Notes: generated by a model from the sequence alone, not told the origin. A DNA stretch of 62,746 nucleotides from an uncultured Bifidobacteriaceae bacterium (GCA_964356125.1 CAYHHH010000009.1:1-62746); one strand, 5' to 3'. Positions 1,793 to 54,825 are shown, numbered from the stretch's first letter. Numbers and translations: made by a program.

Positions 1793-2488
1793 TCAGGACG
1801 CCGCCAGCTCTTCGAGCGCGTTCTTGTCGATGAGCATAAACCCATCCTTCTCAGTGCGGACGATGTCGTCCTTGCCCCATCGGCTCATGATGCGGATGCA
1901 CGTCTCGATCGTCGTGCCGGTCAGGTCCGCAAGCTCCTGCCGCGACAAGACCATGGGAATCGCGATGCCCTCTGGCTCGGGGCGCCCGATGTTTTCGCCG
2001 AGCTTCAGGAACAGCCGCGCGATGCGTGCTTCCACACGGCCTCCGGTCAACTCCGTCAGGCGGTTGGTCAGCTCGACGAGCCGCTGCGTCAAACCGAAGA
2101 GCAAGCCTCGCACGAGTGACGGATGCTGTTCGAGCAGCGCGAAGAACGCCTGACGCGGCGTCAACAGGCACACGGTGTCTTCCAGCGCGATCGCCGATGC
2201 GGGAAACGGGCGGCCTTCGTACGCGGCCACGGCGCCGAATGGATCTCCGACGCCGAACAGCTCGAGAATGACGTCCTTGCCCGCCGGCGTCATCTTGACG
2301 ATCTTCACCCGCCCGCTGACGACGACCGAGAAAAACTCGGACGGCTCCCCCTCCCCGAAAATGGGCTCGCCTTTGGCGTACGTCTTCACATGCGAGACGC
2401 CGGCGAGCCGGCTGCGATCCTCCTGGTTGAGTCGCCTGAACATCGACGTTCGCCGGATCGCTTCCTCGATTTCAGCGGTTGTGGACAT
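1793..2488 (-). CDS. Crp/Fnr-family transcriptional regulator (DNR/NnrR-like, no FNR-type Cys cluster)
   Basis: ORF 1793..2518 (TTG) trimmed to ATG 2488. N-terminal cNMP-binding-type beta-roll (FRRLNQEDRSRLA...GEPIFGEGEPSEFFSVVVSGRVKI). C-terminal HTH LSRQELADLTGTTIETCIRIMSRW. Only two Cys in total, so no N-terminal Fe-S motif. Confidence 0.9.
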   Translation of the reverse strand: MSTTAEIEEAIRRTSMFRRLNQEDRSRLAGVSHVKTYAKGEPIFGEGEPSEFFSVVVSGRVKIVKMTPAGKDVILELFGVGDPFGAVAAYEGRPFPASAIALEDTVCLLTPRQAFFALLEQHPSLVRGLLFGLTQRLVELTNRLTELTGGRVEARIARLFLKLGENIGRPEPEGIAIPMVLSRQELADLTGTTIETCIRIMSRWGKDDIVRTEKDGFMLIDKNALEELAAS

Positions 2489-2532
2489 GCAGGGAATTCT
2501 AGCCCAAGGCCCTTCCAATCCGTCACTTACGG

Positions 2533-19063: not shown

Positions 19064-19083
19064 GCTATGACGAGCGTCATAGC
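19064..19083. promoter_or_regulatory. Palindromic operator candidate GCTATGACG-AG-CGTCATAGC (core TATGAC-N4-GTCATA) upstream of narC
   Basis: Read directly from the sequence. The centre lies 42.5 nt upstream of the narC ATG (19031). No Shine-Dalgarno sequence is visible before that ATG. Confidence 0.7.
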
Positions 19084-36864: not shown

Positions 36865-36899
36865 GGGGTACCAGCTTTTACGACGAACCGACACGAGCT

Positions 36900-36919
36900 C
36901 ATATGACCGCCGTCATATG
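36900..36919. promoter_or_regulatory. Palindromic operator candidate CATATGAC-CGCC-GTCATATG (core TATGAC-N4-GTCATA)
   Basis: Read directly from the sequence. Lies in the 134-nt gap between the NIPSNAP gene stop and the PQQ dehydrogenase start. Confidence 0.65.
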
Positions 36920-38714: not shown

Positions 38715-38736
38715 CGGGAACCTCCGTTCATTTCTT

Positions 38737-42574: not shown

Positions 42575-42592
42575 GTATGACGGCCGTCATAC
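42575..42592. promoter_or_regulatory. Perfect 18-bp palindrome GTATGACGGCCGTCATAC (core TATGAC-N4-GTCATA)
   Basis: Read directly from the sequence. The centre lies 77.5 nt upstream of ATG 42506. Confidence 0.65.
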
Positions 42593-43510: not shown

Positions 43511-43891
43511 TCACGCATCATTCAGCGCCTCCTCGATGCTCTCTTCAATCCATCGCAACGCGTCGAGCGCGCGGGGAAGGCCGATCGTGGGCAGGGCAAT
43601 CAACGCGACCTGCCGCAACGCCTCGGGCGACACGCCTGCCCGCAGCGCCTTCTTCGCGTGGATGTGAACGGTGCGATCGATGGCTCCGCCGACCGATACC
43701 GCCAGCTTGGCCAGCGCAATGGTCTGTGTGTCCAGCGGTCCCGCACAGCGGCACGCCTCGCTCAGCCCGTCATAGGCGGCGGCCACGGCGGGATATCGCG
43801 CCTCGAATCGCTTCCAGTTGCGCGGCGTGTTCTGCGCGCGGGCGGCCGCGCCGTTACGACGAACAATTGTGGGAGACATGGTGCGCTTCAT
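43511..43891 (-). CDS. Carboxymuconolactone decarboxylase (AhpD-like) family protein
   Basis: All-helical pattern ...LDTQTIALAKLAVSVGGAIDRTVHIHAKKALRAGVSPEALRQVALIA... The start is uncertain (ATG 43891 or 43879), and either choice overlaps the upstream gene. Confidence 0.6.
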   Translation of the reverse strand: MKRTMSPTIVRRNGAAARAQNTPRNWKRFEARYPAVAAAYDGLSEACRCAGPLDTQTIALAKLAVSVGGAIDRTVHIHAKKALRAGVSPEALRQVALIALPTIGLPRALDALRWIEESIEEALNDA

Positions 43892-44783
43892 ACAGATCCA
43901 GACATTGCGGGCAGAGCCCGCGATCGATGCTCCACGACGGATAGTCGCGCTCAATCAGCGATCGCGCCGCGGCGCTCAGGCGTTCCGGATGCCGATCGAG
44001 TGACGCAACCGGAAACCGGCACAGCGGGCACCGGCCGGTCTCGCCGCGCTCGTCGCCGATCGACCCAGGAGGAGTGACAGCAAAGGCCGCCATCGCCTGG
44101 TGAGTCGGCGCGACTCGGTCGAACCACTCGTCGAAGGTGCGGCCCGCGCGATCGCCAAGCATGGAAAACGTCGAGCCGAATTCACGCCGGCGCGCGGCGC
44201 GGGCATCCGGATGAGCCAGACCTGTTCGGGCGAGGCGGCCGTCGATCGTCACATCCCAAAGGACGCGGTAGCGATCGCGAACGATATTGTCCGCTGACGG
44301 CCCGTCATCGGACGGCGGCAGGCGTCGCTCGTAGCCAAAGGCCGGGTCGAGCATATCGGCCACGTGCATGAGTTCGTGACGAAGCAGCGCGCGGAGCGGC
44401 TCGGGATCGAGCAACAGCGACGGCCTCAGCCTGAGCGCCAGGAGCGGCTGACGCCGGCCTGCGACGTCCGGGAGCGCGCGGTCGAATAGATCCGCGCCTT
44501 CCTCCTGGCGCCGCAGGGCGCGAAGCACGCGGACCTGAGCGACACGTTCGGCAACCTCCGCGCGTTCCTCGATCGCGTTCTCGACTGGTCGGTGGAGATC
44601 CAGGCGCACGAACCATTTCAGGTGTGCCGCGCGGAAGGCCGCATCGCGCCGCTCCGGATCGGCGATGTCGTACGCGGCATTTCGCTCCAGCCGAAATCCA
44701 CGAATCATGTCGCCCGGCATCGTTCGCTCGGCCAGCAACACGGCTTCCTCGACGAGATCGGGAGCGTACGTCGTATCGATCAC
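43854..44783 (-). CDS. Hypothetical HExxH (HELMH) protein with C-terminal CxxC...CxxC zinc-ribbon-like motif
   Basis: GTG 44783 overlaps the chaperone stop (GTGA). Motif LLRHELMHVADMLDP. C-terminus CPLCRFP...(about 30 aa)...CPQC. No family recognised. Confidence 0.5.
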   Translation of the reverse strand: MIDTTYAPDLVEEAVLLAERTMPGDMIRGFRLERNAAYDIADPERRDAAFRAAHLKWFVRLDLHRPVENAIEERAEVAERVAQVRVLRALRRQEEGADLFDRALPDVAGRRQPLLALRLRPSLLLDPEPLRALLRHELMHVADMLDPAFGYERRLPPSDDGPSADNIVRDRYRVLWDVTIDGRLARTGLAHPDARAARRREFGSTFSMLGDRAGRTFDEWFDRVAPTHQAMAAFAVTPPGSIGDERGETGRCPLCRFPVASLDRHPERLSAAARSLIERDYPSWSIDRGLCPQCLDLYEAHHVSHNCSS

Positions 44784-45559
44784 GGGTGTCGCTGAATTTG
44801 AATGAGATCCTCAGCCGAGCCGCACATCATCGGCGTGTCGTCGACCAGCTCCGGGCGCACCGTGAGACCAGCCGGACCGCCTTCAACCCCGGCGCGCGCG
44901 CATACCCCATCGAGGAACCGGAGGAAGACGGATCCGAGCGCCCCGTAAAACATGCCGACGCCGTCGGCGGCCAGCGCGGTGCCGAACGCGCGGCCAAAAT
45001 GCCCGAGGTGGTCGCGCAGGAAGGCACGTTCGGCCTGTGCGGTCACCTCAAGCGTCTCCGCGTCGCCTTCGCCTTCGAGCTCCATCGCCAGAAGCCGGGC
45101 CTGCTTCCGATTCAGGAACTCGAGGAACTCGCACTCACAGGCGACGTGATCCAGCCGCACCTCGGACGCCGAGGGCGGAGTGAGCCCGAAGGCAAGGTAA
45201 TACCCGGCGAGGTCGGCGAGCTGCTGCGGCTGCTGGAACTTGTTGTCGTCGCCGAACTCGGTTTCACAGGCACACACCAGCCCGCGCGTGGTGTGGCCGA
45301 AGACCCGCCAGTACTGGCCCGCCAGCGCGTCGAGGTCGCCGACCGCGACGGCCGTCAACTGCCGAACCGCTGTGTCCAGAGCGGCGGTCCCGTCCGGCAC
45401 GTCGACGCATCCCAACGCCTCGACGAACAGAGAAAAGCCGTCAGAGGCGCCCATGTCGCGGAGCCGGGCGCGCGTCGGCTCCTGAAACGCGATGGAAAAC
45501 GTCCGGTAGACAACAGCCATCGCGAGCGAGTCGTTCATGCGGCTGACGGGATCGAGCAT
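44780..45559 (-). CDS. TorD/NarJ-family maturation chaperone for the type II molybdoenzyme (NxrD/DdhD-like)
   Basis: ORF trimmed to ATG 45559 (GAGGA RBS, 8 nt after the beta-subunit stop). YWRVFGHT...CETEFGD...QQLADLAGYYLAFGL...DHVACECEFLEFL is the TorD-family signature. Confidence 0.8.
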   Translation of the reverse strand: MLDPVSRMNDSLAMAVVYRTFSIAFQEPTRARLRDMGASDGFSLFVEALGCVDVPDGTAALDTAVRQLTAVAVGDLDALAGQYWRVFGHTTRGLVCACETEFGDDNKFQQPQQLADLAGYYLAFGLTPPSASEVRLDHVACECEFLEFLNRKQARLLAMELEGEGDAETLEVTAQAERAFLRDHLGHFGRAFGTALAADGVGMFYGALGSVFLRFLDGVCARAGVEGGPAGLTVRPELVDDTPMMCGSAEDLIQIQRHP

Positions 45560-45567
45560 GTTGGTCC

Positions 45568-46836
45568 TCAGATCGAATTCGCGTGCTTGTTCGTGCGAAC
45601 GTGCAGCGGTTCCTCGACCGTCGTCCGGAAGAGCTCCTGGCCCCGCTTGCCGAACGCGATAACCGTGTCGTTGTAGAGCTCGACCTTCCTGCCGTGCAGC
45701 GTGCCTTCGTAGATCTTGGGACCTTCCTGGATCTCGTACTTGTAGATGATGCGGTTCGACCGCCTGAACAGCTGGAGCACCGCGAGCAGCTCGCGGCTCG
45801 GGTTCGCGTAGCGGTCGATCGCACCGTCGACACCCGGCCCGAACATCTGCGTCAGATACGGCCGCGCCACCCATCGTGGGGGAATGTAGTAGCCGTTGGG
45901 CTGCGTCCCGAACTGCGGATACAGAGGCAAGGCCACCTTGGCGACATGGACCATGTAATAGAGCGGGTTGTAACGATCCTCAGCCCACGTGCCGTCTTCC
46001 GCCATCTGCACCAGCCCCTGCATACGGATCTGTCCGATGCACGCGGCCATGCAGCGCGTCTCCATGGGCTCGCCGCCGCTCTCCGGATCCGTCCCCTCGA
46101 CCCTCGGATAGCAGGCGATGCACTTCTCGCTCGTACGGGTGTTGCCCCGGTACATCGTCTTCTTGTACGGGCAGGCTTCGACGCACTTGCGGTAGCCACG
46201 GCACTCGGACTGATCGAGGAGAACAATGCCGTCTTCGGGCCGCTTGTAGATCGCATTACGAGGACACGCCGCCAGGCAGGCCGGATACGAGCAGTGATTG
46301 CAGATGCGGGCCAGATAGAAGAACCAGGTGTTGTGCACCGGAAGTTGCTCACCGGTGGAGTGGAGCTTGTCGCGCACGCCGGGCTTGCCAAGCGGATTGT
46401 CCTCGTAGATGTTCGGGGAATTCCATTCCTCGTCGGTTGGGAGGTAGCCAAGCACGCGCGCGCTGTCGGGGCTGAGCGCGCGATCGGCCGCCTCGAAGAT
46501 CGTCTGTCCTTCGAACTTGCCGTGAGGGGCCGACCGGTTATCGGCCTCGGCGCCGCCCCATACCTGACCGTCGGGGTTTGCCTGTTCCAGCAGGCCCAGG
46601 ATCTTGGCATCCCACCACTGTGGGTAGCCGCCGTACGGCTTCGTCTCGACATTGGCCCACCACATGTGCTCCTGTCCCTTGCTGAAGGTCCATGTCGACT
46701 TGCACGCCATGGTACAGCTCTGGCACGCGATGCAGCGGTTGATGTTGAAGACGAACGCGAACTGCCGCGACGGGTAGCGCGCGTCGTGCGGATAACTCAT
46801 GTCGCGGCCGAGCTGCCAGTTTTTCACGGTCGCCAT
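45568..46836 (-). CDS. Type II DMSO-reductase-family beta subunit, NxrB-like (4 Fe-S clusters)
   Basis: The N-terminus MATVKNWQLGRDMSYPHDARYPSRQFAFVFNINRCIACQSCTMACKSTW resembles Nitrospira/anammox-type NxrB as I remember it. Other Cys groups are CNHCSYPACLAACP, CRGYRKCVEACPY and CIACYPR...CMAACIGQIR. At 422 aa it is longer than the Ebd/Pcr/Ser-type beta subunits. Confidence 0.85.
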   Translation of the reverse strand: MATVKNWQLGRDMSYPHDARYPSRQFAFVFNINRCIACQSCTMACKSTWTFSKGQEHMWWANVETKPYGGYPQWWDAKILGLLEQANPDGQVWGGAEADNRSAPHGKFEGQTIFEAADRALSPDSARVLGYLPTDEEWNSPNIYEDNPLGKPGVRDKLHSTGEQLPVHNTWFFYLARICNHCSYPACLAACPRNAIYKRPEDGIVLLDQSECRGYRKCVEACPYKKTMYRGNTRTSEKCIACYPRVEGTDPESGGEPMETRCMAACIGQIRMQGLVQMAEDGTWAEDRYNPLYYMVHVAKVALPLYPQFGTQPNGYYIPPRWVARPYLTQMFGPGVDGAIDRYANPSRELLAVLQLFRRSNRIIYKYEIQEGPKIYEGTLHGRKVELYNDTVIAFGKRGQELFRTTVEEPLHVRTNKHANSI

Positions 46837-46838
46837 CG

Positions 46839-47168
46839 TCAGCTCCTCGACCGGATCAGCCGAAGCGGCTTGATCGCGATCTCGTCGTCAGGTGCATCCG
46901 TCACCACGCAGCGTACGCGCCCCCAGACGCTCAGGCTATCGTCGACGATGCGCGCGATCGCGTCCTCGCCAAGGAGCTGCCAGGCCTGGTAGGCCCCGGC
47001 ATAAAACGGCGCGCGGAACAGCGCGAGAATCTGCGCGCGCGTGTGCCCGAGCTGGGCGAACTCGTCGGCGAACGCCTCGGCCATGCCCCGCGTCACCCCC
47101 TCATCACCGGGGAGCGCGACGCCGACGAGCTCCTGCGGGTCCTGCGGATCCGGATCGTCGTACGGCAT
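46839..47168 (-). CDS. Small acidic hypothetical protein between the alpha and beta subunit genes
   Basis: 109 aa, MPYDDPDPQDPQELVG.... Separated by 1 nt from the alpha stop and 2 nt from the beta start. The codon usage looks like that of its neighbours. No family recognised. Confidence 0.5.
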   Translation of the reverse strand: MPYDDPDPQDPQELVGVALPGDEGVTRGMAEAFADEFAQLGHTRAQILALFRAPFYAGAYQAWQLLGEDAIARIVDDSLSVWGRVRCVVTDAPDDEIAIKPLRLIRSRS

Positions 47169-47169
47169 G

Positions 47170-50100
47170 TCAGCCTCTCTTCTTTGTGAGGTCGCCGGCG
47201 AGATATCGCTTCATCGCCTCGCTCTCGTTGTCTGGCGAGTAGCCGGTCGTGGCCGGAGCCCAGATGCCTTTGCCGCCCATGCCGCCGTCCTCGGCTTTCG
47301 TCACCCGCACGAGCGTTTCCTTCGGCACCGTGTTGACGGCGTGGTTGTCGGCTTCACCGCCGAAGATGAACGACATGGCCGCCTTGGCCTTGTGGAAGAG
47401 CGTGTCGGTCTGGTGCATCGGCATGTGCCAGTTGCGCGTGATCGACTGTTGCGACCCGTAGCGGAGGTTCGCCTGATATCCCGTGTTGGCCGACAACGCG
47501 CGACCATCGGGTCTGGTCTCGTGCGCCTTTACGCTCTTCTCGGTCGCGATGAACGGCGCGTGTTTCATCATCACGATGTTGTAGGGGTACGCGCGGTTGT
47601 AGGTGACGCGCAGCATGCACCGCGCCACGCGGTAGAACGGATCGTCGGGCTTGGCCCCGATGTATGGGCGATCGGCGGGGTTCGCGTCGATGTAGACATA
47701 ATCGCCGTCGTTGATGCCCAGATCGCGCGCCGCCTGCGGGTTGATGTGCATCTGGTGCTCCCCGACGCACGGCGCACGCTTGTCGAGGCGGTACGGATCG
47801 CCGAAGTTCGAGTCGTAGAGCATGTGCCAATCGACGTTCGACCAGCCTGAATGAACCCGGTGCCGTGTCTTGGGCGTCAGGCAGTAGAACTGAAATCCCT
47901 TTTCCCACAGGAAGTTCTTGGTGACTCGCGCCTGCGCCCACGGCATCTTGATATTGCGGATCGTGCGATCGTCCCAGTGCTCGGCGGTCCGCGGGATGCC
48001 GTAGTCCTCGGGACGGATGTACGGATTCCCACTGACGATGACATTGGGCAGATACGGCGTCGCCTCGGGCCCTTCGCGATGCACGATGAAGTTCTCGCCG
48101 TACTCGATGGCCTCCGGCACGTCGGCGTAGGCATGCAGCCGGCCGGTGTCGGTGTGGAACGGCTCGCTATCGTGCACCTGCTCGTAGAACGGAATGCGCG
48201 GATACGTGCGGAAGTTCAGCAGGGCGCCTCCCGGAGGGCCGTACTTGCCGGCCATGAGGTCGGAGACCGTATAGCCGCTCGTCGTGGTGGACGTGTCGAG
48301 CAGCCGTTGCAGATAGATGTCGCGATTGCCCTCGTGCTCGAACTTGAACATCTCGACGAACCGCTGGTCACCGGTCACCTCCGCCATGGCCCTGCCGATG
48401 CCGGCAAGAATGGTGAGATCGTCCTTGCTGTCGAACACCGGCGGGATGCCGCCTTTCCAGACCTGCAGGAATGGATTGGAACAGCTGGCGGTGACTTCGA
48501 GACCCTCGAATTCCATCCACGAGTTCGCCGGCAGCGCGAGATCGGCGTACTCGATCGAGGCGGTCATCTGGATGTCCATCGAGACGATCATTTCGATATT
48601 CGGATTGACGTTCTTGATCATCTCGTAAGCGTGCTTGGCGTTGTTAATCAGGTTCACGTTATTGAAGATCAACGCCTTGGTGGGCGTCGGCATGTGCGTG
48701 GCGCCGGTAAAATTCTTTCGGCCGAACTTGGGCGTCTGCACGATGAGCGCCTTGTCGCCGTGATTCCAGTACGCAGGCTCCTCATCCTTTGTGTAGGCGT
48801 GGGCGTGGATGTCCTTGCCCGGAGCGTTGGGGTCGAGGGTCAGGTGGAAGGGATCTTCGGCCACCCATCCCTTGAAGCCGGGGCCCGACCAGGCCGACCC
48901 CTGAAACAGCGCCGCCTTGTAATTGCCCGCCCACGTGTGACAGCCGGCACCCGGCTTCCCGATGTTGCCGGTGAGCATCAACGGCAGATAGGCCGCGCGA
49001 TTCATCTCGGTGGCGTGGAACCAGTGGTTGATGCCCTCCCCCTGATGGATGGCGGCAGGCGCGATCGTGGCCAGATCCTCGGCGAGCTGCTCGATGAGAT
49101 CTTTCGGCGCCCGTGTGATCTCGGCGACGGTATCGAGGTCGTAATCCTTCAAGTGAACCTCGTACATCGTCCACAGCGTCGCGCACTCCACCGTTTTCCC
49201 ATCGGCGAGCTTGATCGGGAATCGCCCGGCGAGCGCGGGCTCGATGCCTCGCTTCGCCATGACGTCGCCGATGTCCTCGCGTGTGACGGCGACCGGCGCG
49301 TTCTTCTTCGTGTCCCAGACAACGAAGTCGCCGAGCTGGGCGTGCTGCTCGAGCGTGAGCCCCTGGATCTTCATCGACGGGCCGTCTGGCCCGATCGTCG
49401 TCGTGTAGCCGGGAAACACCTCGTGCGCCCGGAGCCGCTTCAGCGTGTCGGTGCGGACGAGCAGCGGGAAGTCGGTGAACTGCTTGACGAACTTCTCGTC
49501 GTACTGCTTCTTGTCGATCATCAGGCGCGTGATCCCGAGGAACAGCGCCGCGTCGGTCTGCGGCCGGATCGGAATCCAGTAGTCGGCCTTGGTGGACGGC
49601 GGCCCGTACTCCGGCGCGATGACGACGATCTTCCCGCCCCGCTCCATGCACTCGATGAACCAGTGCGAGTCGGTCAGCTTGTTCTCGACCAGGTTCTTCC
49701 CATCCATGACAATGAGCTTGGAGAACCGGAGGTCGTTGAAGTCGCAGTCGGACGCCTGCAGCCCGTGCACCCACGGGTGGCCTGGCGCCTGATCGCCGTG
49801 CCACGTGTAGTTGGAGAAATTGCGGCCGGCCATGGCCTTGTCTTCCCCCACGCCCCGGATCTTCGCGTCGAGCAGCGCCATCGAATTGTTCAGGCGGTAC
49901 ATCCCGTACTTGCCCAGTACGCCCAGCAGACCCATCCCCCCGCGCATCTTGAACGTGCGCGTGCCGGCCCCACCCGTCTCGCGCACCATCTCGGGCTGAT
50001 AGCCCTGCGCGAGCAGTCGCTTGGTGCCCTCTTCTCCGCTGTATCGCCGGGCGATCGCGTCCAGCGCTCGGGCGATGTTCGAGAAGGCATCCTCCCAGGA

Positions 50101-50640
50101 GATCTGGATGAACTCGTCGTCTCCGCGGCGGCTGAAGTAGTACTTGTCCTTGTTCTCCGGCGTCAGCTCGGGGAACCCCGCATCGGCCCAGGCCTTCCAT
50201 CCCCGGCGTACGATGGGATGGCGCAGGCGGTACGGCCCGTAGAGCACGCGGTGGAACGTGTAGCCCTTGGCGCACTGGCGCGGGTTCCAGTTGTTGGTCG
50301 CGTGATTGCCGTAGAGGTCGGCGTAGTCCTGGTAGTCGTAGGTGGCGCCGCTTCGCACGACAATGCCGTTGCGCACGTACGCCCGGATGCGGCAGGCGTG
50401 GGTGTCGTTGGGCGAACACACCCAGTCGAATGTCGAATCGTAGCGATACTGGTCGTGATAGATCTTCTCCCAGTCGCGACCGACGCGTCTCGCCAGGGGA
50501 TTCCCATCGTCCGCCGGTCGGAAGAGCCGGCAGCCACTCTCGAGGCCGGCCAGCGAGAGCGCAGTGCCCGCGCCGAGCCATTGCAGGAACCGGCGCCGTG
50601 CGAGATCGGCATGGTCGTTGTGATTGGGTGTGTCGCTCAC
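47170..50640 (-). CDS. Tat-exported type II DMSO-reductase-family molybdopterin alpha subunit, NxrA/periplasmic Nar-like
   Basis: GTG 50640 lies 6 nt after AAGGAG. Tat motif ARRRFLQWLGAG. N-terminal Fe-S motif VCSPNDTHACRIRAYVRNG (C-x3-D-x3-C instead of the NarG H-x3-C-x3-C). 1156 aa. Confidence 0.85.
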   Translation of the reverse strand: MSDTPNHNDHADLARRRFLQWLGAGTALSLAGLESGCRLFRPADDGNPLARRVGRDWEKIYHDQYRYDSTFDWVCSPNDTHACRIRAYVRNGIVVRSGATYDYQDYADLYGNHATNNWNPRQCAKGYTFHRVLYGPYRLRHPIVRRGWKAWADAGFPELTPENKDKYYFSRRGDDEFIQISWEDAFSNIARALDAIARRYSGEEGTKRLLAQGYQPEMVRETGGAGTRTFKMRGGMGLLGVLGKYGMYRLNNSMALLDAKIRGVGEDKAMAGRNFSNYTWHGDQAPGHPWVHGLQASDCDFNDLRFSKLIVMDGKNLVENKLTDSHWFIECMERGGKIVVIAPEYGPPSTKADYWIPIRPQTDAALFLGITRLMIDKKQYDEKFVKQFTDFPLLVRTDTLKRLRAHEVFPGYTTTIGPDGPSMKIQGLTLEQHAQLGDFVVWDTKKNAPVAVTREDIGDVMAKRGIEPALAGRFPIKLADGKTVECATLWTMYEVHLKDYDLDTVAEITRAPKDLIEQLAEDLATIAPAAIHQGEGINHWFHATEMNRAAYLPLMLTGNIGKPGAGCHTWAGNYKAALFQGSAWSGPGFKGWVAEDPFHLTLDPNAPGKDIHAHAYTKDEEPAYWNHGDKALIVQTPKFGRKNFTGATHMPTPTKALIFNNVNLINNAKHAYEMIKNVNPNIEMIVSMDIQMTASIEYADLALPANSWMEFEGLEVTASCSNPFLQVWKGGIPPVFDSKDDLTILAGIGRAMAEVTGDQRFVEMFKFEHEGNRDIYLQRLLDTSTTTSGYTVSDLMAGKYGPPGGALLNFRTYPRIPFYEQVHDSEPFHTDTGRLHAYADVPEAIEYGENFIVHREGPEATPYLPNVIVSGNPYIRPEDYGIPRTAEHWDDRTIRNIKMPWAQARVTKNFLWEKGFQFYCLTPKTRHRVHSGWSNVDWHMLYDSNFGDPYRLDKRAPCVGEHQMHINPQAARDLGINDGDYVYIDANPADRPYIGAKPDDPFYRVARCMLRVTYNRAYPYNIVMMKHAPFIATEKSVKAHETRPDGRALSANTGYQANLRYGSQQSITRNWHMPMHQTDTLFHKAKAAMSFIFGGEADNHAVNTVPKETLVRVTKAEDGGMGGKGIWAPATTGYSPDNESEAMKRYLAGDLTKKRG

Positions 50641-50659
50641 GGCGCGCTCCTTCTCTCTG

Positions 50660-52285
50660 TCACCGCTCGAGCACGAGCTCTTGCCAAATCGTCACCGACT
50701 TCTTCCCATCGCGGTCCCCGGCGCTGCCGTTCCACACGGCGAAGGCCACCGGCACACGTCCGCCGGGCGACAACTCGACTTCACCGGACGGCGCGGACAG
50801 CGCCCGCGTAAACTGCACCCGATATGAGCCGGTCATGTGCTCACCGTTGGCCACCACCGACTGCGAGGCGCGCGGATGGGCCTTGAGCGTGCCGAATCCC
50901 TGCGCCGTCAGATTTTCGGCGGCGCTGTGACGCGTCGGATCCGCAACGATGTTGCCGGCGCCCCAGGCGGTCACAAAGGCAGGATCGGACTGGAGCGTCA
51001 ACGCATTTCGCGTGGGTTGCTCGAGTGGCGACTTGGACGAGTTTGGGTAGGAATCAATACCAATGTTGGGGTAGATCTTGTCGATCTCCTGAAACGCCGG
51101 CGCCATATCGGCCTGCCGTTCCGCCTTCCACATCCAGATGTTCACGGGTGCGCCCGGCTGGCCCATGGCGAAGAACGGCGGATCGGGCGCGAGCGCGAAT
51201 TCGGCGGCAACACTATCGCGAAAATCCTGAGGCCGAATCGCGGTCGCGTCGTGCGTGTTGTCTTCCCACTTCAGGAGCATCGCGAGGGTCTTCCCGTCGT
51301 GCACCGCTCGCACCGTGATTTCTTCGGGACGATCGGTGCGCCACCACAGCGGCATCATGTGAAGGTTGACGGCCGGTGTGTTGCGCCATACGCCCGAATC
51401 GGCATGTGTCGGCAACTGCGGCACCCGCGTCGCCACGATCCTGAACTGCTTCATCTCCACTTTCGCGCGCTGCGCATCGCTCGAGAGCGATCGGACGAAA
51501 TGCACGAGATGCCATCCGTCGCTGCCCTGTAGATAGCCGCTCTGTGGCATCGGCGATCCGGGCAACCCCGCGACGATGCGGCGATAGACGCTCGCAGCGT
51601 CGGGGCTTCCCTTGAAGACGCCGAGTGTCAAATCGCGAGGCCGTGTCGGATAACCCTTTGAGTCGACTTGTTTCTGCGCGCCGTCGCCTCGACCTGTCGC
51701 GCCGTGGCACGGGGCGCAACCTTTCAGGTACAGCTCGGCGGCGCGAGCCTGTGCCGCCGCGTCATACGCAGGCTCTACGGGTACCGTGACGGGACCGCCG
51801 GCGCCGTTGCCCCATTTGTCAGGTTCGTGACTGGCTTTGATGACAAGCGGGCGCTTCGAGAACGCCTTCACGTAGTGCACGAGCCCCCAGCGCGTTTCTT
51901 CACTGAGGTGCGCCCACGAGGGCATGGCCGAACCCGGCATGCCGCGCGAGATCGTCCGAAACAGATCCACGTCGGTCGGCACACCGTCCCACGTCGAAAT
52001 CAACCGGTACTGCCCCAGCGTGAAGTCTCTGGGGCGCGGATAGAGCAGATACGCGGCGGCACCGAGCCCATCACCCGCGCTGCCGTGACAGGCCAGGCAC
52101 TCCTTTTGGAAGGTCGTACGTCCGAGGTCGATGAGATCGCCTGAAGCCGGCAGGACTTGTGCGGGCTCCAGGCTGTGCGGGACGGGTCCAGATTCAAGGC
52201 GTTCTGGCACCGATCGTGTACAGCCGGCCGCGATGACAAGAATCCAGAGGCAGAGGGACCAACGCCGCACAGCGTCCGAAGGCAT
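50660..52285 (-). CDS. Lipoprotein-type dihaem cytochrome c fused to an EB_dh (ethylbenzene dehydrogenase gamma / NxrC-like haem b) domain
   Basis: ATG 52285 lies 5 nt after GGAGG. Signal LWILVIAAGC. CLACH and CAPCH motifs, homologous to the dihaem part of 3362..4531. The C-terminal 260 aa (WRNTPAVNLHMMPLWW...VHDGKTLAMLLKWED...FAVWNGSAGDRDGKKSV) fit the DMSO-reductase type II haem b subunit pattern. Confidence 0.75.
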   Translation of the reverse strand: MPSDAVRRWSLCLWILVIAAGCTRSVPERLESGPVPHSLEPAQVLPASGDLIDLGRTTFQKECLACHGSAGDGLGAAAYLLYPRPRDFTLGQYRLISTWDGVPTDVDLFRTISRGMPGSAMPSWAHLSEETRWGLVHYVKAFSKRPLVIKASHEPDKWGNGAGGPVTVPVEPAYDAAAQARAAELYLKGCAPCHGATGRGDGAQKQVDSKGYPTRPRDLTLGVFKGSPDAASVYRRIVAGLPGSPMPQSGYLQGSDGWHLVHFVRSLSSDAQRAKVEMKQFRIVATRVPQLPTHADSGVWRNTPAVNLHMMPLWWRTDRPEEITVRAVHDGKTLAMLLKWEDNTHDATAIRPQDFRDSVAAEFALAPDPPFFAMGQPGAPVNIWMWKAERQADMAPAFQEIDKIYPNIGIDSYPNSSKSPLEQPTRNALTLQSDPAFVTAWGAGNIVADPTRHSAAENLTAQGFGTLKAHPRASQSVVANGEHMTGSYRVQFTRALSAPSGEVELSPGGRVPVAFAVWNGSAGDRDGKKSVTIWQELVLER

Positions 52286-52331: not shown

Positions 52332-52347
52332 TATGACGGCTGTCATA
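52332..52347. promoter_or_regulatory. Palindromic operator candidate TATGAC-GGCT-GTCATA upstream of the NXR-like operon
   Basis: Read directly from the sequence. The centre lies 54.5 nt upstream of ATG 52285. Confidence 0.7.
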
Positions 52348-52357: not shown

Positions 52358-52471
52358 ATGAAGACGCTGTGCGACAACGGTCAGGTACCCGGTCCGCTGC
52401 TGCGCGTGAAGGAAGGCCGGCCGCTCACCGTCGATGTGGCGGTACTCGAGTTGAGCGATCGGACTCATTAG
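52358..52471 (+). pseudogene. Relic of a multicopper oxidase / NirK-type cupredoxin N-terminus (37 codons, then stop)
   Basis: Hand translation gives MKTLCDNGQVPGPLLRVKEGRPLTVDVAVLELSDRTH-stop. NGQ.PGP.L.V.EG....V.V matches the first cupredoxin domain of multicopper oxidases. The frame ends where the first HxH copper motif would begin. Confidence 0.4.
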
Positions 52472-52502
52472 AGGCGGCGCGAGTCCGATCGCGGCCTCAC
52501 TT

Positions 52503-52925
52503 TTATTGCAGCGATTCGACGTACTTCGTGAGGCCTTCAATGCGCAGCCTCATCCCGGTGTCCCCGCCTGGCATTTCACGAAGCGCCTTTCCCCAGACAG
52601 GCATGTCGCGGCTGCCGTGTGCGGAAATTTCGTCGAGCCCCTCTATGTAACGACGCACTCTCGTATCCGGAAACTTGCCGCCGTTTCGCACGCTGAGTCT
52701 GGTGAGATCGGCAGGCACCGTCTTCAGCGCCGCGGCGGCTGGCCCGTCTCCTCTTCCACCCAAACCGTGGCAGGGGGCACAGTACTCTCGAAACATCCCC
52801 GGTGAATCGCCTCCTTCGACGAACGGTGGCGGTTTGTTGATGATCCTCGGCTTGTCCTGGGCGCCGGCTGTTCCGCCGAGCGCCAGCGTGAACATGGCAG
52901 CCATCACGATGGTGCGCTTCGCCAT
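52503..52925 (-). CDS. Periplasmic monohaem class I cytochrome c
   Basis: ATG 52925 lies 7 nt after AAGGAG. Signal peptide. CAPCH and the distal DMPVWG Met ligand context. Confidence 0.8.
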   Translation of the reverse strand: MAKRTIVMAAMFTLALGGTAGAQDKPRIINKPPPFVEGGDSPGMFREYCAPCHGLGGRGDGPAAAALKTVPADLTRLSVRNGGKFPDTRVRRYIEGLDEISAHGSRDMPVWGKALREMPGGDTGMRLRIEGLTKYVESLQ

Positions 52926-53190
52926 AGGCATACTCCTTTTCCTGCTTCTTGCGTGAGCCTCCGCGTGCGTGACCCCGGCCAGTGCAAAGCACGTTCCGCT
53001 CAATGTCGCATCAACGCGGCCGTTTCACTCGCATTCGTCGAGCTCCCCTCACGATCGCGGTCCTCAGGTGTGGATTTTTCCCGAGCGCTGCGAGAATCCC
53101 CCAATCGACTCGTCGCGCTTACAGAGAAATTACATTCGGCCGCTGCCCAACCCGGTAGGATCGTGGTTTCGGCTGGTCTGGAGGCCTGAC

Positions 53191-54825
53191 ATGTCTGTTT
53201 CACCGCGATCGCGCCCCTGCGTACTGCTGACGTCGGTCTTCGGTCCCTTTGCCCGCGACGACGAGTTCGGCAGCCGCGCCATCAACCCGCTCGAGCTCTA
53301 TCACAACCAGGTGACGCGCGCGCAGGGACCGTTCTCGCTGCGGATGCACCATCGCTCCTGGGGCATCATGCTGATTCAGGAGAACATCTCGGCGAGGTCG
53401 ACGCTGCTCGATTTTCCGACGCGCGAGCGCTTCATCCAGGAGCTGACGTCGAACGCGTACGACGTCGTCGGCATTTCCGGGATCATCGTGAACATCGGAA
53501 AGGTCCGGGAGATGTGCCGGCTCGTCCGCCTGCACTCGCCGAAATCGGTACTCGTCGTGGGTGGACACGTCGCTGCGATACCAGGCGTCGAGCGGATGCT
53601 CGACGCCGATCACATCGTCAAGGGCGAGGGCATCCGCTGGTTTCGCGAGTTCCTTGGCGATCCGGTCGATGCGCCGATCGCGCATCCGGCCATACCCTCT
53701 TCGTTCGGGTTCCGGCTCATGGGCCTGAAGGCGCCGCGCGGCGGCGGCGACCCGGCGGCCACCATCATTCCGTCGGTCGGTTGTCCGATGGGCTGCAACT
53801 TCTGCACGACCTCGTCGTTTTTCGGCGGCAAGGGGCATTTCGTGAACTTCTACCATACGGGAGCGGAGCTGTTCGACATCATGTGTGAGGTCGAGCGCAA
53901 GCTCGGCGTGCGCACCTTCTTCATGATGGACGAGAACTTCCTCCTGTATAAGAAGCGGGCCCTGGAGCTCCTCGACCACATGAAGCGGCACGGCAAGCCG
54001 TGGTCGATGTTCGTGTTCTCCTCGGCCAACGCGATTCGCCAGTACGAGATGCGGCAGCTCGTCGAGCTGGGCGTGAGCTGGGTCTGGATGGGGTTCGAGT
54101 CGCCGGCCTCGGGATACATCAAGCTGAAGGACACCGATACCATCGCGTTGACGCGCGAGCTGCAGTCGCACGGCATCCGCGTGCAGGGGTCGACGATCGT
54201 CGGTATGGAGCACCACACGCCGGAGAACATCCGCGGCGAGATCGAGCACGCCGTCGCGCACGACGCGGACTGCCACCAGTTCATGCTCTACACCCCGGTG
54301 CCGGGCACGCCGCTGCACGCGGACATGGAGACGCAGGGGCGGATGTTGAAGGACGTCGACCTGGCGGACATCCACGGGCAGTACAAGTTCAATTTCAGGC
54401 ACGAGCACATCGAGCGAGACGACTCGAAGACGTGGCTCGACTTGGCGTTTCAGCGCGACTTCGAGACCAACGGGCCGAGCCTGCTTCGCATGATGCGGAC
54501 GATCTTCGAGGGGTGGAAGCGCTACCACCAGGACAGCGATGCGCGCGTGCGTGCCCGCTTCTGTGCCGAGGCGTCGAAGCTTCGCGAGGGATACGGGGCG
54601 GCGCTGTGGGCGATGGAACGGTATCTTCGCCATTCGAATGCGCCGATCAGCGCGCGCGCGAGAGACTTGCGGCGCGAGATTGAGCGCGATCTCCGCGGAC
54701 TCTCCTGGGCGATCGACCGCCTTGTGGGGCCGGTGCTGCTCTGGGCGGCGCGCCGCGAGGCGGCGAGGTTTCCGGCCGGGCGCCCGCTCGAGCCGCAGAC
54801 GTTCGTCGAGCGGCGAAACTGGTAA
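53191..54825 (+). CDS. B12-binding-domain radical SAM protein (class B)
   Basis: ATG 53191 lies 6 nt after GGAGG. N-terminal flavodoxin-like B12 domain (YDVVGISGIIVN...VLVVGGHVAA). Radical SAM motif CPMGCNFC. No extra Cys clusters. Confidence 0.8.
   Translation: MSVSPRSRPCVLLTSVFGPFARDDEFGSRAINPLELYHNQVTRAQGPFSLRMHHRSWGIMLIQENISARSTLLDFPTRERFIQELTSNAYDVVGISGIIVNIGKVREMCRLVRLHSPKSVLVVGGHVAAIPGVERMLDADHIVKGEGIRWFREFLGDPVDAPIAHPAIPSSFGFRLMGLKAPRGGGDPAATIIPSVGCPMGCNFCTTSSFFGGKGHFVNFYHTGAELFDIMCEVERKLGVRTFFMMDENFLLYKKRALELLDHMKRHGKPWSMFVFSSANAIRQYEMRQLVELGVSWVWMGFESPASGYIKLKDTDTIALTRELQSHGIRVQGSTIVGMEHHTPENIRGEIEHAVAHDADCHQFMLYTPVPGTPLHADMETQGRMLKDVDLADIHGQYKFNFRHEHIERDDSKTWLDLAFQRDFETNGPSLLRMMRTIFEGWKRYHQDSDARVRARFCAEASKLREGYGAALWAMERYLRHSNAPISARARDLRREIERDLRGLSWAIDRLVGPVLLWAARREAARFPAGRPLEPQTFVERRNW

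What the first reader, a model, noticed from the sequence alone, without database searches (positions are those of the whole stretch)
44780..52285. Periplasmic (Tat) NXR/Nar-like type II molybdoenzyme operon coexisting with a cytoplasmic NarGHJI in the same window
**Alpha subunit.** It is 1156 aa with an RRRF Tat motif. Its N-terminal cluster motif is CSPNDTHAC (Cys/Asp ligands) instead of the Nar[10 protein letters not shown].

**Beta subunit.** It is 422 aa, and its N-terminus resembles Nitrospira/anammox-type NxrB.

**Placement.** As far as I recall the sizes, both subunits match the periplasmic nitrite oxidoreductase clade rather than the Ebd/Pcr/Clr/Ser/Ddh enzymes, which have alpha of about 900 aa and beta of about 330 aa.

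**Why it matters.** I am not aware of such enzymes being described in Acidobacteriota- or Gemmatimonadota-like heterotrophs. Depending on direction, the enzyme could be a periplasmic nitrate reductase or a nitrite-oxidising module, with different energetics from NarG.

**Regulation.** The operon carries the same upstream box as nar and nos.
Basis: partly seen in the sequence, partly recalled or inferred. Interest (0 to 1): 0.75.

Follow-up and report, generated by a model that had tools for sequence, protein, structure and literature searches.

The report
Periplasmic NXR-type nitrate/nitrite oxidoreductase cassette
A soil-type Gemmatimonadota denitrifier carries, next to an ordinary nitrate reductase, a complete periplasmic enzyme of the same lineage as the nitrite oxidoreductase of Nitrospira and anammox bacteria; the same six-gene cassette occurs in hundreds of uncultured bacterial species and has been noted before, but nobody knows which way it runs in the cell.

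Summary
On the minus strand, 52285-43854, lies a six-gene operon:
- a gamma subunit (dihaem cytochrome c fused to a haem-b domain);
- a Tat-exported 1156-aa molybdoenzyme alpha;
- a 109-aa protein;
- a 422-aa Fe-S beta;
- a NarJ/TorD-type chaperone;
- a 309-aa Cys4 protein.

Alpha is 62.7% identical over 958 residues to Kuenenia NxrA (PDB 7B04). It is 23% identical to the window's own NarG. It keeps the 3Cys/1Asp FS0 ligands, the substrate Asn and the Mo-ligand Asp.

The novelty claim is not. The cassette is syntenic in 80 of 80 inspected loci out of 551 matches in species-representative genomes. These include Gemmatimonadota (90% nucleotide identity) and Acidobacteriota. Several papers already report NXR-like genes in heterotroph genomes, some beside Nar, with direction unknown.

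New here:
- the conserved cassette with two uncharacterised genes;
- a perfect 16-bp palindrome (TATGAC-N4-GTCATA) shared with nar, nos/ric and two carbon-oxidation genes, and recurring upstream of the cassette in other phyla.

Most likely it is a cytochrome-c-linked periplasmic nitrate reductase. Nitrite oxidation is not excluded.

The parts
52332..52347 (.). 16-bp palindrome TATGACAGCCGTCATA, a putative Crp/Fnr-family operator. Its centre is 54 bp upstream of the gamma start codon.
   Evidence: It is one of five perfect copies in the window. The same 14-bp core lies within 300 bp upstream of gamma in 8 of 63 related loci, about 45-fold enriched over the rest of those loci.
50660..52285 (-). 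Gamma subunit, 541 aa. It has a lipoprotein-type signal peptide (LVIAAG|C), a dihaem cytochrome c domain (two CxxCH motifs) and an EB_dh haem-b domain.
   Evidence: Pfam hits are Cytochrome_CBB3/Cytochrom_C plus EB_dh. Residues 51-269 match PDB 6h5l_B, a Kuenenia dihaem cytochrome c (E 1e-38). Residues 323-541 match Kuenenia NxrC, 7b04_C (E 3e-25), with the Met and Lys haem-b ligands aligned. Both CxxCH motifs and the Met/Lys are conserved in 64 homologues. Lipobox.
47170..50640 (-). Alpha (catalytic) subunit, 1156 aa. It has a Tat signal (RRRF, residues 15-18), FS0 ligands C75/D79/C83/C123, substrate Asn78 and Mo-ligand Asp283.
   Evidence: Residue roles come from Chicano et al. 2021 (PMC8387239). 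dN/dS is 0.075 against L001.
46839..47168 (-). p109, a conserved 109-aa protein of unknown function that always lies between alpha and beta.
   Evidence: No Pfam or NCBIfam hit. It is present in the same position in nearly all 80 loci. dN/dS is 0.12. The single-sequence AF2 model is unusable.
45568..46836 (-). Beta subunit, 422 aa, with Cys groups for three [4Fe-4S] clusters and one [3Fe-4S] cluster.
   Evidence: It scores 580 bits to Kuenenia NxrB, 7b04_A, over its full length. Pfam hit Fer4_11. Cys pattern.
44780..45559 (-). NarJ/TorD-type assembly chaperone, about 259 aa. The start is taken at the first ATG after the beta stop.
   Evidence: Pfam Nitrate_red_del and TIGR03482 (type II DMSO reductase chaperone). 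Start coordinate.
43854..44783 (-). p309, a conserved 309-aa protein with an invariant HExxHxxD motif and a C-terminal Cys4 (CxxC...CxxC) motif. It is the last gene of the cassette.
   Evidence: Syntenic in most loci. 678 homologues, all 'hypothetical' and without Pfam domains. Invariant residues. AF2 gives pLDDT 88 but no solved-structure match. dN/dS is 0.17.
52503..52934 (-). Small Sec-exported monohaem cytochrome c (about 143 aa) immediately upstream. It is a possible redox partner and is not a conserved part of the cassette.
   Evidence: Weak Cytochrome_CBB3 hit. It is separated from gamma by about 200 bp that hold a hairpin and the box. It is not syntenic in most loci.
1793..2518 (-). 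Crp/Fnr-family regulator without an FNR Cys cluster, and the candidate binder of the palindrome. It is divergent from ric (scdA)-nos, with a box copy between them (2536-2549).
   Evidence: A 64%-identical regulator with the same box and a divergent ric gene lies beside the cassette in the Acidobacteria locus L003.
19067..19080 (.). Copy of the same palindrome upstream of the cytochrome c-narGHJI operon.

Best explanation
**What it is**

The operon encodes a soluble or lipid-tethered periplasmic molybdoenzyme of the Nitrospira/anammox NXR lineage that interconverts nitrate and nitrite.

**Assembly (inferred from family knowledge)**
- Alpha is loaded with Mo-bisMGD and FS0 in the cytoplasm with the NarJ/TorD-type chaperone.
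- Alpha is exported with beta by Tat.
- Gamma is exported by Sec and lipid-anchored.

**Electron path (cofactor sites shown by sequence)**
- Mo, then FS0 (3Cys/1Asp), then four Fe-S clusters in beta.
- Then the Met/Lys-ligated haem b, then two haems c in the same polypeptide, then soluble c-type cytochromes.

**Direction in this host (inferred)**

The host is a Gemmatimonadota denitrifier. The operon shares an operator with nar, nos/ric and periplasmic dehydrogenase genes. I take its main physiological role to be nitrate reduction in the periplasm. Electrons would come from the quinol:cytochrome-c branch or from periplasmic dehydrogenases. This would act as a Nap-like second nitrate reductase that needs no nitrate import.

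The enzyme class is reversible in vitro, so nitrite oxidation when oxygen or another high-potential acceptor is present is possible.
For: **Identity**
- 62.7% identity over 958 aa to Kuenenia NxrA, against 22.7% to the window's own NarG.
- PDB scores.
- Catalytic and cofactor residues are kept.
- Tat motif.
- 100% bootstrap for the clade with Kuenenia NxrA, and separation from the TIGR03479-type enzymes and from NarG.

**Functionality**
- All six genes are under purifying selection, with dN/dS 0.05-0.17.
- The cassette is syntenic in 80 loci.

**Reversibility of the class**
- Kuenenia NXR does both reactions (PMC8387239).

**Direction**
- The same perfect palindrome lies upstream of the cytochrome c-narGHJI operon and of ric-nosZDFY.
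- The regulator-box-ric unit lies next to the cassette in an acidobacterial locus.
- An Rrf2-family (Fe-S sensor type) regulator lies directly upstream in 16 of 80 loci.
- Hosts are mostly heterotrophs or anaerobes from groundwater, soil and sediment, such as Omnitrophota, Hydrogenedentota, Syntrophobacteraceae and Binatia.
- Related haem-b/cytochrome-c-coupled type II enzymes (Ser, Clr, Pcr) work as reductases (established knowledge; Lucker 2013).
Against: - No sequence feature is known to set the direction.
- The nearest characterised relatives (Nitrospira, Nitrospina, anammox) use the enzyme mainly to oxidise nitrite.
- The high-potential Met/Lys haem b and the fused haems c are equally what a nitrite oxidiser needs.
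- The regulator's signal is unresolved. Its closest solved relatives are cAMP-CRP proteins, not DNR or FNR. The Rrf2 protein cannot be assigned to NsrR.
- The same box also precedes carbon-oxidation genes, so it may mark a global regulon rather than a denitrification one.
- The host already has NarGHJI, so a second nitrate reductase is not needed a priori.
- No nitrite reductase or terminal oxidase operon lies in the window to show where electrons go.
Confidence: 0.55

Rival explanations
1. It works in vivo mainly as a nitrite oxidase. Nitrite would be oxidised in the periplasm and the electrons passed through haem b and haems c to a cytochrome c oxidase. The purpose would be nitrite detoxification or supplementary energy (mixotrophy) in an otherwise heterotrophic bacterium.
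For: - Every experimentally characterised close relative is used for nitrite oxidation.
- FS0, Asn and Mo-Asp are identical to NXR.
- Haem-c-plus-haem-b 'alternative NxrC' proteins and a zinc-finger gene belong to the conserved NXR gene set of Nitrospira, Nitrospina and Kuenenia.
- A small cytochrome c is encoded next door.
- Authors of MAG studies have proposed this reading.
- The host has NarGHJI for nitrate reduction already.
Against: - Co-regulation with nar and nos argues for expression when oxygen is scarce.
- Many hosts of the cassette are anaerobes.
- No carbon-fixation or oxidase genes are linked in the window.
- The flanks of the 80 loci are variable. A COX3-type gene recurs in only 6 of them.
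Confidence: 0.3
2. It oxidises nitrite anaerobically and passes the electrons to N2O or NO reduction (NosZ, Nor). This would be a periplasmic 'nitrite loop' that removes toxic nitrite during denitrification.
For: - It is thermodynamically feasible: the nitrite/nitrate couple is about +0.43 V and N2O/N2 about +1.35 V (established values).
- The operon shares its operator with ric-nos.
- All partners would be periplasmic and cytochrome-c linked.
- Anammox bacteria use NXR electrons for nitrite reduction.
Against: - No precedent exists outside anammox.
- It would regenerate the nitrate that the co-expressed Nar has just reduced, a futile cycle.
- nos or nor genes are not linked to the cassette in the other loci examined.
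Confidence: 0.07
3. Its true substrate is another oxyanion or compound (chlorate, perchlorate, selenate, DMS, a hydrocarbon), as in other type II DMSO-reductase enzymes.
For: - Same overall architecture: Tat alpha, Fe-S beta, haem-b gamma and a chaperone.
- NXR and Nar enzymes reduce chlorate as a side reaction (general knowledge).
Against: - Only 192 bits to PcrA and 163 to EbdA, against 1777 to NxrA.
- TIGR03479 and the EbdA model score far below their cut-offs.
- The substrate Asn, which is Ile in EbdA, is kept.
- It is separated from the TIGR03479-type representative by 100% bootstrap nodes.
Confidence: 0.04
4. It is a recently transferred, non-functional or silent passenger cassette.
For: - Very short branches across more than 12 phyla point to frequent horizontal transfer.
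- The flanks are variable.
Against: - All reading frames are intact.
- GC3 matches that of the host genes.
- dN/dS is 0.05-0.17.
- It has a host-type operator upstream.
Confidence: 0.02

Closest known systems
Kuenenia stuttgartiensis NXR-ABC (PDB 7B04; Chicano et al. 2021, PMC8387239)
   Same: - Alpha is 62.7% identical and colinear over the whole length.
- Beta scores 580 bits.
- The gamma haem-b domain is homologous, with the same Met/Lys ligands.
- FS0 is 3Cys/1Asp, and the substrate Asn and Mo-Asp are kept.
- Alpha has a Tat signal.

   Different: - Gene order here is gamma-alpha-p109-beta-chaperone-p309.
- Here gamma carries an N-terminal dihaem cytochrome c domain and a lipobox. Kuenenia NxrC is a 322-aa haem-b protein.
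- No NXR-T (tubule) gene was seen in the operon.
- The host is a denitrifying heterotroph, not an anammox bacterium.
Periplasmic NXR of Nitrospira and Nitrospina, with their 'alternative NxrC' proteins (Lucker 2010 and 2013; PMC3578206)
   Same: - Same lineage: about 58% identity over the N-terminal 190 residues to Nitrospira fragments.
- Same subunit sizes, alpha about 1150 aa and beta about 425 aa.
- Haem-c-plus-haem-b gamma-like proteins, a TorD-like chaperone and a zinc-finger gene are described in their NXR gene sets.
   Different: - In the N-terminal tree the Nitrospira fragments group with Kuenenia rather than with the cassette clade, though support is weak at 60%.
- Those organisms are chemolithoautotrophic nitrite oxidisers.
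- Their nxrAB genes have no gene inserted between them (from memory, not tested here).
NXR-like genes in heterotroph or uncultured MAGs (PMC10732223, PMC9306079, bioRxiv 10.1101/2020.05.19.103440)
   Same: - Poorly annotated 'molybdopterin oxidoreductase' genes that score more than 1000 bits to Kuenenia NxrA.
- Tat signal and Sec-exported NxrC.
- Sometimes found in genomes that also carry Nar.
- Direction stated to be unknown.

   Different: - Those reports concern mainly Planctomycetota, KSB1, Verrucomicrobiota, Chloroflexi, Armatimonadetes and Proteobacteria.
- In the passages I read, they do not describe the six-gene cassette, p109, p309 or the shared operator.
Membrane-bound NarGHI (E. coli PDB 1Q16; also the window's own NarGHJI at 11849-18246)
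   Same: Same superfamily, same reaction chemistry, Asp ligand to Mo, Fe-S beta subunit and NarJ-type chaperone.
   Different: - 23% identity.
- NarG has a His/3Cys FS0 (HGVNCTGSC), faces the cytoplasm, has no Tat motif and uses the dihaem-b membrane anchor NarI, which oxidises quinol.
- The cassette enzyme has no NarI and is cytochrome-c coupled.
Soluble type II enzymes: PcrAB (4YDD), EBDH (2IVF), Ser, Clr, Ddh (TIGR03479 subfamily)
   Same: Periplasmic, Tat-exported, haem-b gamma of the EB_dh family with Met/Lys ligation, and electron exchange with c-type cytochromes.
   Different: - Alpha is about 250 aa longer and beta about 90 aa longer.
- Only 163-192 bits to the alphas.
- The family models score far below their cut-offs.

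Nitrotoga NXR, Hydrogenobacter and archaeal periplasmic Nar 'sister clade' (Kitzinger 2018, PMC6050957)
   Same: Periplasmic orientation. The clade mixes nitrate reducers and a nitrite oxidiser, which shows that direction is not readable from phylogeny.
   Different: About 40% identity to Kuenenia NxrA. The representatives of that depth in my tree (Halorussus, Thermincola) branch well outside the cassette clade.

Membership tests
Type II DMSO-reductase family (Mo-bisMGD alpha / Fe-S beta / haem gamma / chaperone) | Alpha with the Molybdopterin oxidoreductase domain, an N-terminal FS0 motif and an Asp ligand to Mo. | tested here: met
   PF00384 hit. C75-x3-D79-x3-C83...C123 and Asp283 align to the Kuenenia residues.
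Type II DMSO-reductase family (Mo-bisMGD alpha / Fe-S beta / haem gamma / chaperone) | Beta with four Fe-S cluster motifs, gamma of the EB_dh haem-b family, and a NarJ/TorD-type chaperone. | tested here: met
   Fer4_11 and the 15-Cys pattern. EB_dh and TIGR03477 hits. Nitrate_red_del and TIGR03482 hits.
Periplasmic NXR lineage (Nitrospira / Nitrospina / anammox) | Alpha clusters with validated periplasmic NxrA and is separate from Nar and from Ser/Clr/Pcr/Ddh/Ebd. | tested here: met
   - 1777 bits and 62.7% identity to Kuenenia NxrA.
- The NJ tree gives 100% bootstrap for the joint clade.
- Limits: the tree is NJ, not ML. Nitrospira is represented only by N-terminal fragments. No Nitrospina sequence was included.
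Periplasmic NXR lineage (Nitrospira / Nitrospina / anammox) | Twin-arginine signal on alpha, and 3Cys/1Asp FS0 with the substrate Asn (C-x2-N-D-x3-C). | tested here: met
   RRRFLQW at residues 15-21 and CSPNDTHAC at residues 75-83.
Periplasmic NXR lineage (Nitrospira / Nitrospina / anammox) | The enzyme oxidises nitrite to nitrate in vivo. | not testable with these tools
   Needs 15N tracer or enzyme assays. The host context (nar, nos, heterotrophic genes) gives no support for lithotrophic nitrite oxidation.
Periplasmic NXR lineage (Nitrospira / Nitrospina / anammox) | Mo-binding pattern Y-x4-D-x11-Q-N, as reported for N. defluvii. | tested here: inconclusive
   The window has Y278-x4-D283-x11-Q295-A296. 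Kuenenia has Q-T and Nitrotoga has Q-M. The last position therefore varies among validated NXRs.
Respiratory nitrate reductase NarGHI | H-x3-C-x3-C FS0, no export, NarI dihaem-b membrane anchor, and the narG equivalog model. | tested here: not met
   TIGR01580 scores 143 bits against a cut-off of 1084. FS0 has Cys/Asp instead of His/Cys. A Tat motif is present. There is no NarI in the operon.
Ser/Clr/Pcr/Ddh/Ebd subfamily (TIGR03479 and partners) | Scores above the subfamily cut-offs for alpha, beta, gamma and chaperone. | tested here: not met
   - Alpha 336 against 985.
- Beta 248 against 481.
- Gamma 117 against 170.
- Chaperone 51 against 152.
- EbdA 174 against 2000.

Periplasmic nitrate reductase NapAB | NapA-type monomeric catalytic subunit with a Cys ligand to Mo. 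| tested here: not met
   NapA models score 49-50 bits against cut-offs above 900. The Mo ligand is Asp.

The most novel reading that the evidence does not exclude
The six-gene cassette is a dedicated nitrate-forming module. Under this reading, heterotrophic denitrifiers across more than a dozen phyla would oxidise nitrite in the periplasm. They would pass the electrons through the enzyme's own dihaem-c domain to oxygen, NO or N2O reductases. A large share of nitrate production in soil and groundwater would then come from organisms outside the canonical nitrite oxidisers and anammox bacteria. p309, a confidently modelled protein with no solved-structure match, would be a new kind of maturation factor for this enzyme.
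Probability: 0.2. Interest if true: 0.8.

Novelty: new member of a known kind. Interest (0 to 1): 0.35.

Why it matters
Metagenomic surveys routinely count 'nxrA' genes as nitrite oxidation. The cassette found here is very common in uncultured soil, groundwater and sediment bacteria, with 551 loci among species-representative genomes.

Its direction of catalysis therefore decides whether those counts stand for nitrate production or nitrate consumption. This window gives one well-defined example in a long contig. It has a complete gene set, a candidate regulator and operator shared with nar and nos, and two conserved genes of unknown function. That makes the question experimentally approachable once a cultured carrier is found. 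By itself the finding is another member of a group that is already recognised but not characterised.

Tried and rejected
1. **Canonical FNR box.** TTGAT-N4-ATCAA with up to 2 mismatches gave 17 hits against 9.4 expected, none near the operon start. Rejected as the shared box.
2. **Sigma-70 promoter scan.** None found in 43.4-53.3 kb. Terminator-like hits were not above shuffles.
3. **Named reference NxrA sequences from a paper supplement.** The supplementary alignment of Chicano et al. is machine-read text full of errors. Abandoned.
4. **Querying the protein database with an approximate Nitrospira N-terminus.** This returned only N-terminal fragments of 260 aa or less, so Nitrospira enters only a 191-column tree with weak support.
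5. **Cluster look-ups of 50%-identity representatives.** These gave MAG names but no canonical Ser, Clr or Ddh references. Those families are represented only by the TIGR03479 model, one representative that passes it (P0219) and the PDB scores for PcrA and EbdA.
6. **p109.** Single-sequence AF2 gave pLDDT 45 and is unusable.
7. **p309.** No Pfam hit even at E 10. Foldseek against PDB found no match with E at or below 0.001. Weak metzincin-like hits at E 2-5 were not accepted.
8. **Assigning the regulators.**
   - The Crp/Fnr protein matches no NCBIfam equivalog. Its nearest solved relatives are cAMP-CRPs.
   - The Rrf2 protein upstream of the cassette in other loci cannot be called NsrR.
   - I therefore dropped the claim that the operon is specifically NO-regulated.
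9. **Tunnel-entrance residues of Kuenenia NxrA.** Asp611 is conserved. Tyr528 did not map onto a Tyr in my numbering. Glu1088 lies outside the part of the sequence I could recover. Inconclusive.
10. **Conserved neighbours that would show direction** (oxidase, nir, nor, carbon fixation). The flanks are too variable.

Full report
**1. What is there**

The window is 62.7 kb with 62-70% G+C. A frame analysis by third-position G+C, together with Pfam and NCBIfam scans, gives this map:
- an outer-membrane efflux gene;
- a Crp/Fnr-family regulator (1793-2518, minus strand);
- a divergent ric (scdA)-cytochrome c/cupredoxin-nosZDFY cluster (2596-10409);
- a cytochrome c-narG-narH-narJ-narI operon (19031-11849, minus strand);
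- about 24 kb of sugar and alcohol oxidation genes (PQQ dehydrogenases, ThuA, FG-GAP/3-keto-disaccharide-hydrolase proteins, a TonB-type barrel);
- then the operon in question.

The operon lies on the minus strand:

| Gene | Coordinates | Size | Notes |
|---|---|---|---|
| gamma | 52285-50660 | 541 aa | dihaem cytochrome c plus EB_dh |
| alpha | 50640-47170 | 1156 aa | catalytic subunit |
| p109 | 47168-46839 | 109 aa | no family |
| beta | 46836-45568 | 422 aa | Fe-S subunit |
| chaperone | 45559-44780 | about 259 aa | NarJ/TorD-type |
| p309 | 44783-43854 | 309 aa | no family |

**2. Which enzyme it is**

Sequence scores:
- phmmer against all PDB chains gives 1777 bits to Kuenenia stuttgartiensis NxrA (7B04 chain B). 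Residues 13-1153 align to its residues 3-1145.
- The next hits are PcrA at 192 bits, EbdA at 163 and E. coli NarG at 114.
- BLASTP gives 62.7% identity over 958 residues to Kuenenia NxrA, and 22.7% to the window's own NarG.
- Beta gives 580 bits to Kuenenia NxrB over its full length.
- None of the NCBIfam models for Ser/Clr/Pcr/Ddh/Ebd-type subunits, for NarG/NarH or for NapA comes near its cut-off.

Functional residues, using the roles assigned in the Kuenenia structure (Chicano et al. 2021, PMC8387239), all align to identical residues:
- FS0 ligands Cys67, Asp71, Cys75 and Cys115 correspond to C75, D79, C83 and C123.
- The proposed substrate-binding Asn70 corresponds to N78.
- The Mo ligand Asp275 corresponds to D283.
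- The tunnel-entrance residue Asp611 corresponds to D619.

Beta has 15 Cys arranged for three [4Fe-4S] clusters and one [3Fe-4S] cluster.

**3. Phylogeny**

The first tree is a neighbour-joining (NJ) tree with 1113 columns and 100 bootstraps. Its sequences were:
- the window alpha;
- 25 of the related loci;
- Kuenenia NxrA;
- full-length representatives of 50%-identity clusters;
- the window NarG.

Results:
- The window groups with a Gemmatimonadota MAG (100%) inside a tight clade of all 25 related loci (100%).
- This clade joins Kuenenia NxrA and a metagenomic relative (P0121) with 100% support.
- Further out come a SAR202 group, a Gaiellaceae group, a group with Halorussus and Thermincola, and representatives of the shorter type II enzymes. 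One of these (P0219) passes the TIGR03479 cut-off.
- NarG is the outgroup.

Full-length Nitrospira sequences could not be obtained. A second tree on 191 N-terminal columns used Nitrospira-named fragments. It puts Nitrospira with Kuenenia (60%) and the cassette sequences in a separate group (96% for its core).

So the enzyme belongs to the periplasmic NXR lineage. It sits in a subclade that, as far as I could establish, has no characterised member. These are NJ trees. The branching order among subclades should be treated as provisional.

**4. The gamma subunit**

- Residues 51-269 match a Kuenenia dihaem cytochrome c (PDB 6H5L chain B, E 1e-38).
- Residues 323-541 match Kuenenia NxrC (E 3e-25).
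- The Met and Lys that ligate haem b in NxrC and in EbdC are aligned.
- Both CxxCH motifs and the Met/Lys are conserved in 64 homologues.
- The window protein starts with a lipoprotein-type signal (LVIAAG|C).
- My strict pattern found a lipobox in 18 of the 64 homologues. Others appear to carry ordinary Sec signals.
- Proteins that combine haem-c sites with the haem-b domain were described as 'alternative NxrC' in Nitrospina, Nitrospira and Kuenenia (Lucker et al. 2013, PMC3578206).

**5. It is a conserved, widely spread cassette**

Distribution:
- A scan of one genome per species (GTDB r232) found 551 loci that encode a relative.
- The best 80 are 73-95% identical. Nearly all are labelled MAGs and none is a named cultured isolate.
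- They come from Gemmatimonadota, Acidobacteriota (including Vicinamibacteria and Thermoanaerobaculia), Binatia, Methylomirabilota/Rokubacteria, Syntrophobacteraceae, Myxococcota, Planctomycetota, Latescibacterota, Hydrogenedentota, Omnitrophota, Marinimicrobia, Eisenbacteria and others.
- The protein database holds more than 2000 relatives. Some are named 'nitrate oxidoreductase subunit alpha' by NCBI.

Synteny and selection:
- tblastn with the six window proteins shows the order gamma-alpha-p109-beta-chaperone-p309 in essentially every locus, wherever the contig is long enough.
- The flanks are variable. The most frequent neighbour is an Rrf2-family regulator directly upstream (16 of 80 loci). 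After it come hemerythrin (8), radical-SAM (8), MobB-FmdE (7) and CMD (6) genes.
- Locus L001 (Gemmatimonadota MAG) is 90% identical in nucleotides to the window over its whole 7.9 kb. The host is therefore a Gemmatimonadota bacterium.
- All six genes are under purifying selection, with dN/dS 0.05-0.17 against L001.

**6. The two unknown genes**

p309:
- It has no Pfam or NCBIfam match even at E 10.
- It has 678 database relatives, all 'hypothetical'.
- Invariant residues include H136, E137, H140 and D143, and C252, C255 and C294. C291 is conserved in at least 90% of sequences.
- An AlphaFold2 model from 49 sequences is confident (pLDDT 88, pTM 0.74).
- Foldseek finds nothing significant in the PDB (best E 0.016, TM 0.22).
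- It may correspond to the 'putative zinc finger' gene that Lucker et al. list in the conserved NXR gene set. I could not test that.

p109 has no family, and its single-sequence model is useless.

**7. Regulation**

In the window:
- It occurs five times:
  - between the Crp/Fnr regulator and ric-nos (2536);
  - upstream of the cytochrome c-narGHJI operon (19067);
  - upstream of a PQQ dehydrogenase (36903);
  - upstream of an FG-GAP/3-keto-disaccharide-hydrolase gene (42577);
  - 54 bp upstream of the gamma start (52333).
- From base composition alone I estimate fewer than 0.001 such 12-specified-base palindromes in 62.7 kb.

In related loci:
- The 14-bp core is the commonest perfect 5-4-5 palindrome within 400 bp upstream of gamma.
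- It occurs in 8 of 63 loci, from Acidobacteria, Rokubacteria and Methylomirabilota.
- It is about 45-fold enriched in the 300 bp upstream of gamma compared with the rest of those loci.
- In the acidobacterial locus L003, a 64%-identical regulator, a box and a divergent ric gene lie just downstream of the cassette.

Limits on what this shows:
- The link between regulator, box and cassette is well supported. The signal is not.
- The regulator lacks the FNR cysteine cluster.
- Its nearest solved relatives are actinobacterial cAMP-CRPs (E 4e-22), ahead of DNR (6e-14).
- No NCBIfam equivalog fits it.
- The box can also be read with CRP-like 5-6-5 spacing.
- The Rrf2 neighbour in other loci cannot be assigned to NsrR.

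**8. How it most likely works**

Shown by sequence:
- a Tat-exported Mo/Fe-S catalytic dimer;
- a Sec-exported, lipid-anchored gamma with one haem b and two haems c;
- no quinol-oxidising membrane subunit.

The enzyme must therefore exchange electrons with periplasmic c-type cytochromes, not directly with the quinone pool.

Inferred:
- The reaction is nitrate/nitrite interconversion, as in its 63%-identical relative, which catalyses both directions in vitro.

For the direction in vivo I favour nitrate reduction, at about 0.55. The reasons are:
- co-regulation with nar and nos/ric;
- the predominance of heterotrophic and anaerobic hosts;
- the analogy with cytochrome-c-fed Ser/Clr/Pcr reductases.

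Energetically it would resemble those enzymes. Charge separation would occur in the quinol:cytochrome-c step, and no nitrate import would be needed.

Nitrite oxidation has about 0.3 aerobic or micro-oxic, and about 0.07 coupled to N2O or NO reduction. It is not excluded, for three reasons:
- every characterised close relative oxidises nitrite;
- the haem complement suits it;
- the host already has Nar.

**9. Comparison with what is known, and novelty**

NXR-like genes of this lineage outside nitrite oxidisers have been reported repeatedly:
- in Planctomycetota and Verrucomicrobiota MAGs from a drinking-water plant (bioRxiv 10.1101/2020.05.19.103440);
- in 19 Planctomycetota MAGs, six of which also carry Nar (PMC10732223);
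- in Proteobacteria, Chloroflexi and Armatimonadetes MAGs of an anammox reactor, with the explicit statement that the direction is unknown (PMC9306079);
- in floodplain soil genome surveys that count NXR as common (PMC8141241).

The finding is therefore a new member of a known, uncharacterised kind.

What this analysis adds:
- the definition of the six-gene cassette with two conserved unknown genes;
- the fused lipoprotein gamma;
- the operator shared with nar and nos.

I found no description of these in the passages I read, but my literature search was limited to open-access full text.

**10. Verdict**

- Observation: confirmed.
- Interpretation: right on enzyme class, wrong on rarity, open on function.
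- Interest: moderate to low (0.35). A specialist would not be surprised by the gene. The unresolved direction of a very widespread enzyme is a real open question, and this locus helps to frame it.

Noticed in passing
window 36903-36916 and 42577-42590: The palindrome that precedes nar, nos/ric and the NXR-type operon also precedes a PQQ-dependent dehydrogenase (34804-36894) and an FG-GAP/3-keto-disaccharide-hydrolase gene (40533-42506). This suggests one regulon that links periplasmic carbon oxidation with N-oxide respiration.
   Followed up: partly
window 18210-19031 (minus): The nar operon starts with a 273-aa protein that has two CxxCH motifs and a hydrophobic C-terminal segment. The layout narC-narGHJI recalls the Thermus nar operon (recalled from memory, not tested). 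No narK-type transporter was seen next to it.
   Followed up: no
window 2596-10409 (plus): - The nos cluster is preceded by a RIC/ScdA gene. Its TIGR03652 score is 204.5 against a cut-off of 204.7.
- It is also preceded by a dihaem cytochrome c-cupredoxin protein.
- NosZ scores below the cut-off for both the Tat-type model (590 against 625) and the Sec-type model (537 against 625).
   Followed up: partly
window 20131-22077, 28555-30498, 40533-42506 (minus); 25974-26756, 37869-38861; 26796-28544, 38737-41100: There are three paralogous FG-GAP plus 3-keto-disaccharide-hydrolase proteins, two ThuA proteins and two FAD_binding_2 proteins. They form repeated modules, probably for periplasmic sugar oxidation.
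   Followed up: no
window 43854-44783 (minus): p309 gives a confident AlphaFold2 model (pLDDT 88) with no significant match among solved structures. It carries an invariant HExxHxxD motif plus a Cys4 motif.
   Followed up: partly
window 52969-54825 (plus): A B12-binding radical-SAM enzyme is encoded divergently from the small cytochrome c gene that precedes the operon. Radical-SAM genes recur in the flanks of 8 of the 80 related loci, and L002 has a 95%-identical fragment of this same protein.
   Followed up: no
window 55350-56603 (minus): A HipA-type toxin kinase gene (HipA_C, E 1e-50). No partner antitoxin was looked for.
   Followed up: no
window 52440-52500 (minus strand): A perfect 12-bp stem (GCGATCGGACTC...GAGTCCGATCGC) lies just after the small cytochrome c gene and before the box. 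It is a hairpin without a T-run and may separate the two transcription units.
   Followed up: no
L032:4505-6232 (minus) and L063:565-2673 (plus): In a Rokubacteria locus and in an unclassified locus, copies of the same palindrome precede multihaem cytochrome c genes next to the cassette.
   Followed up: no
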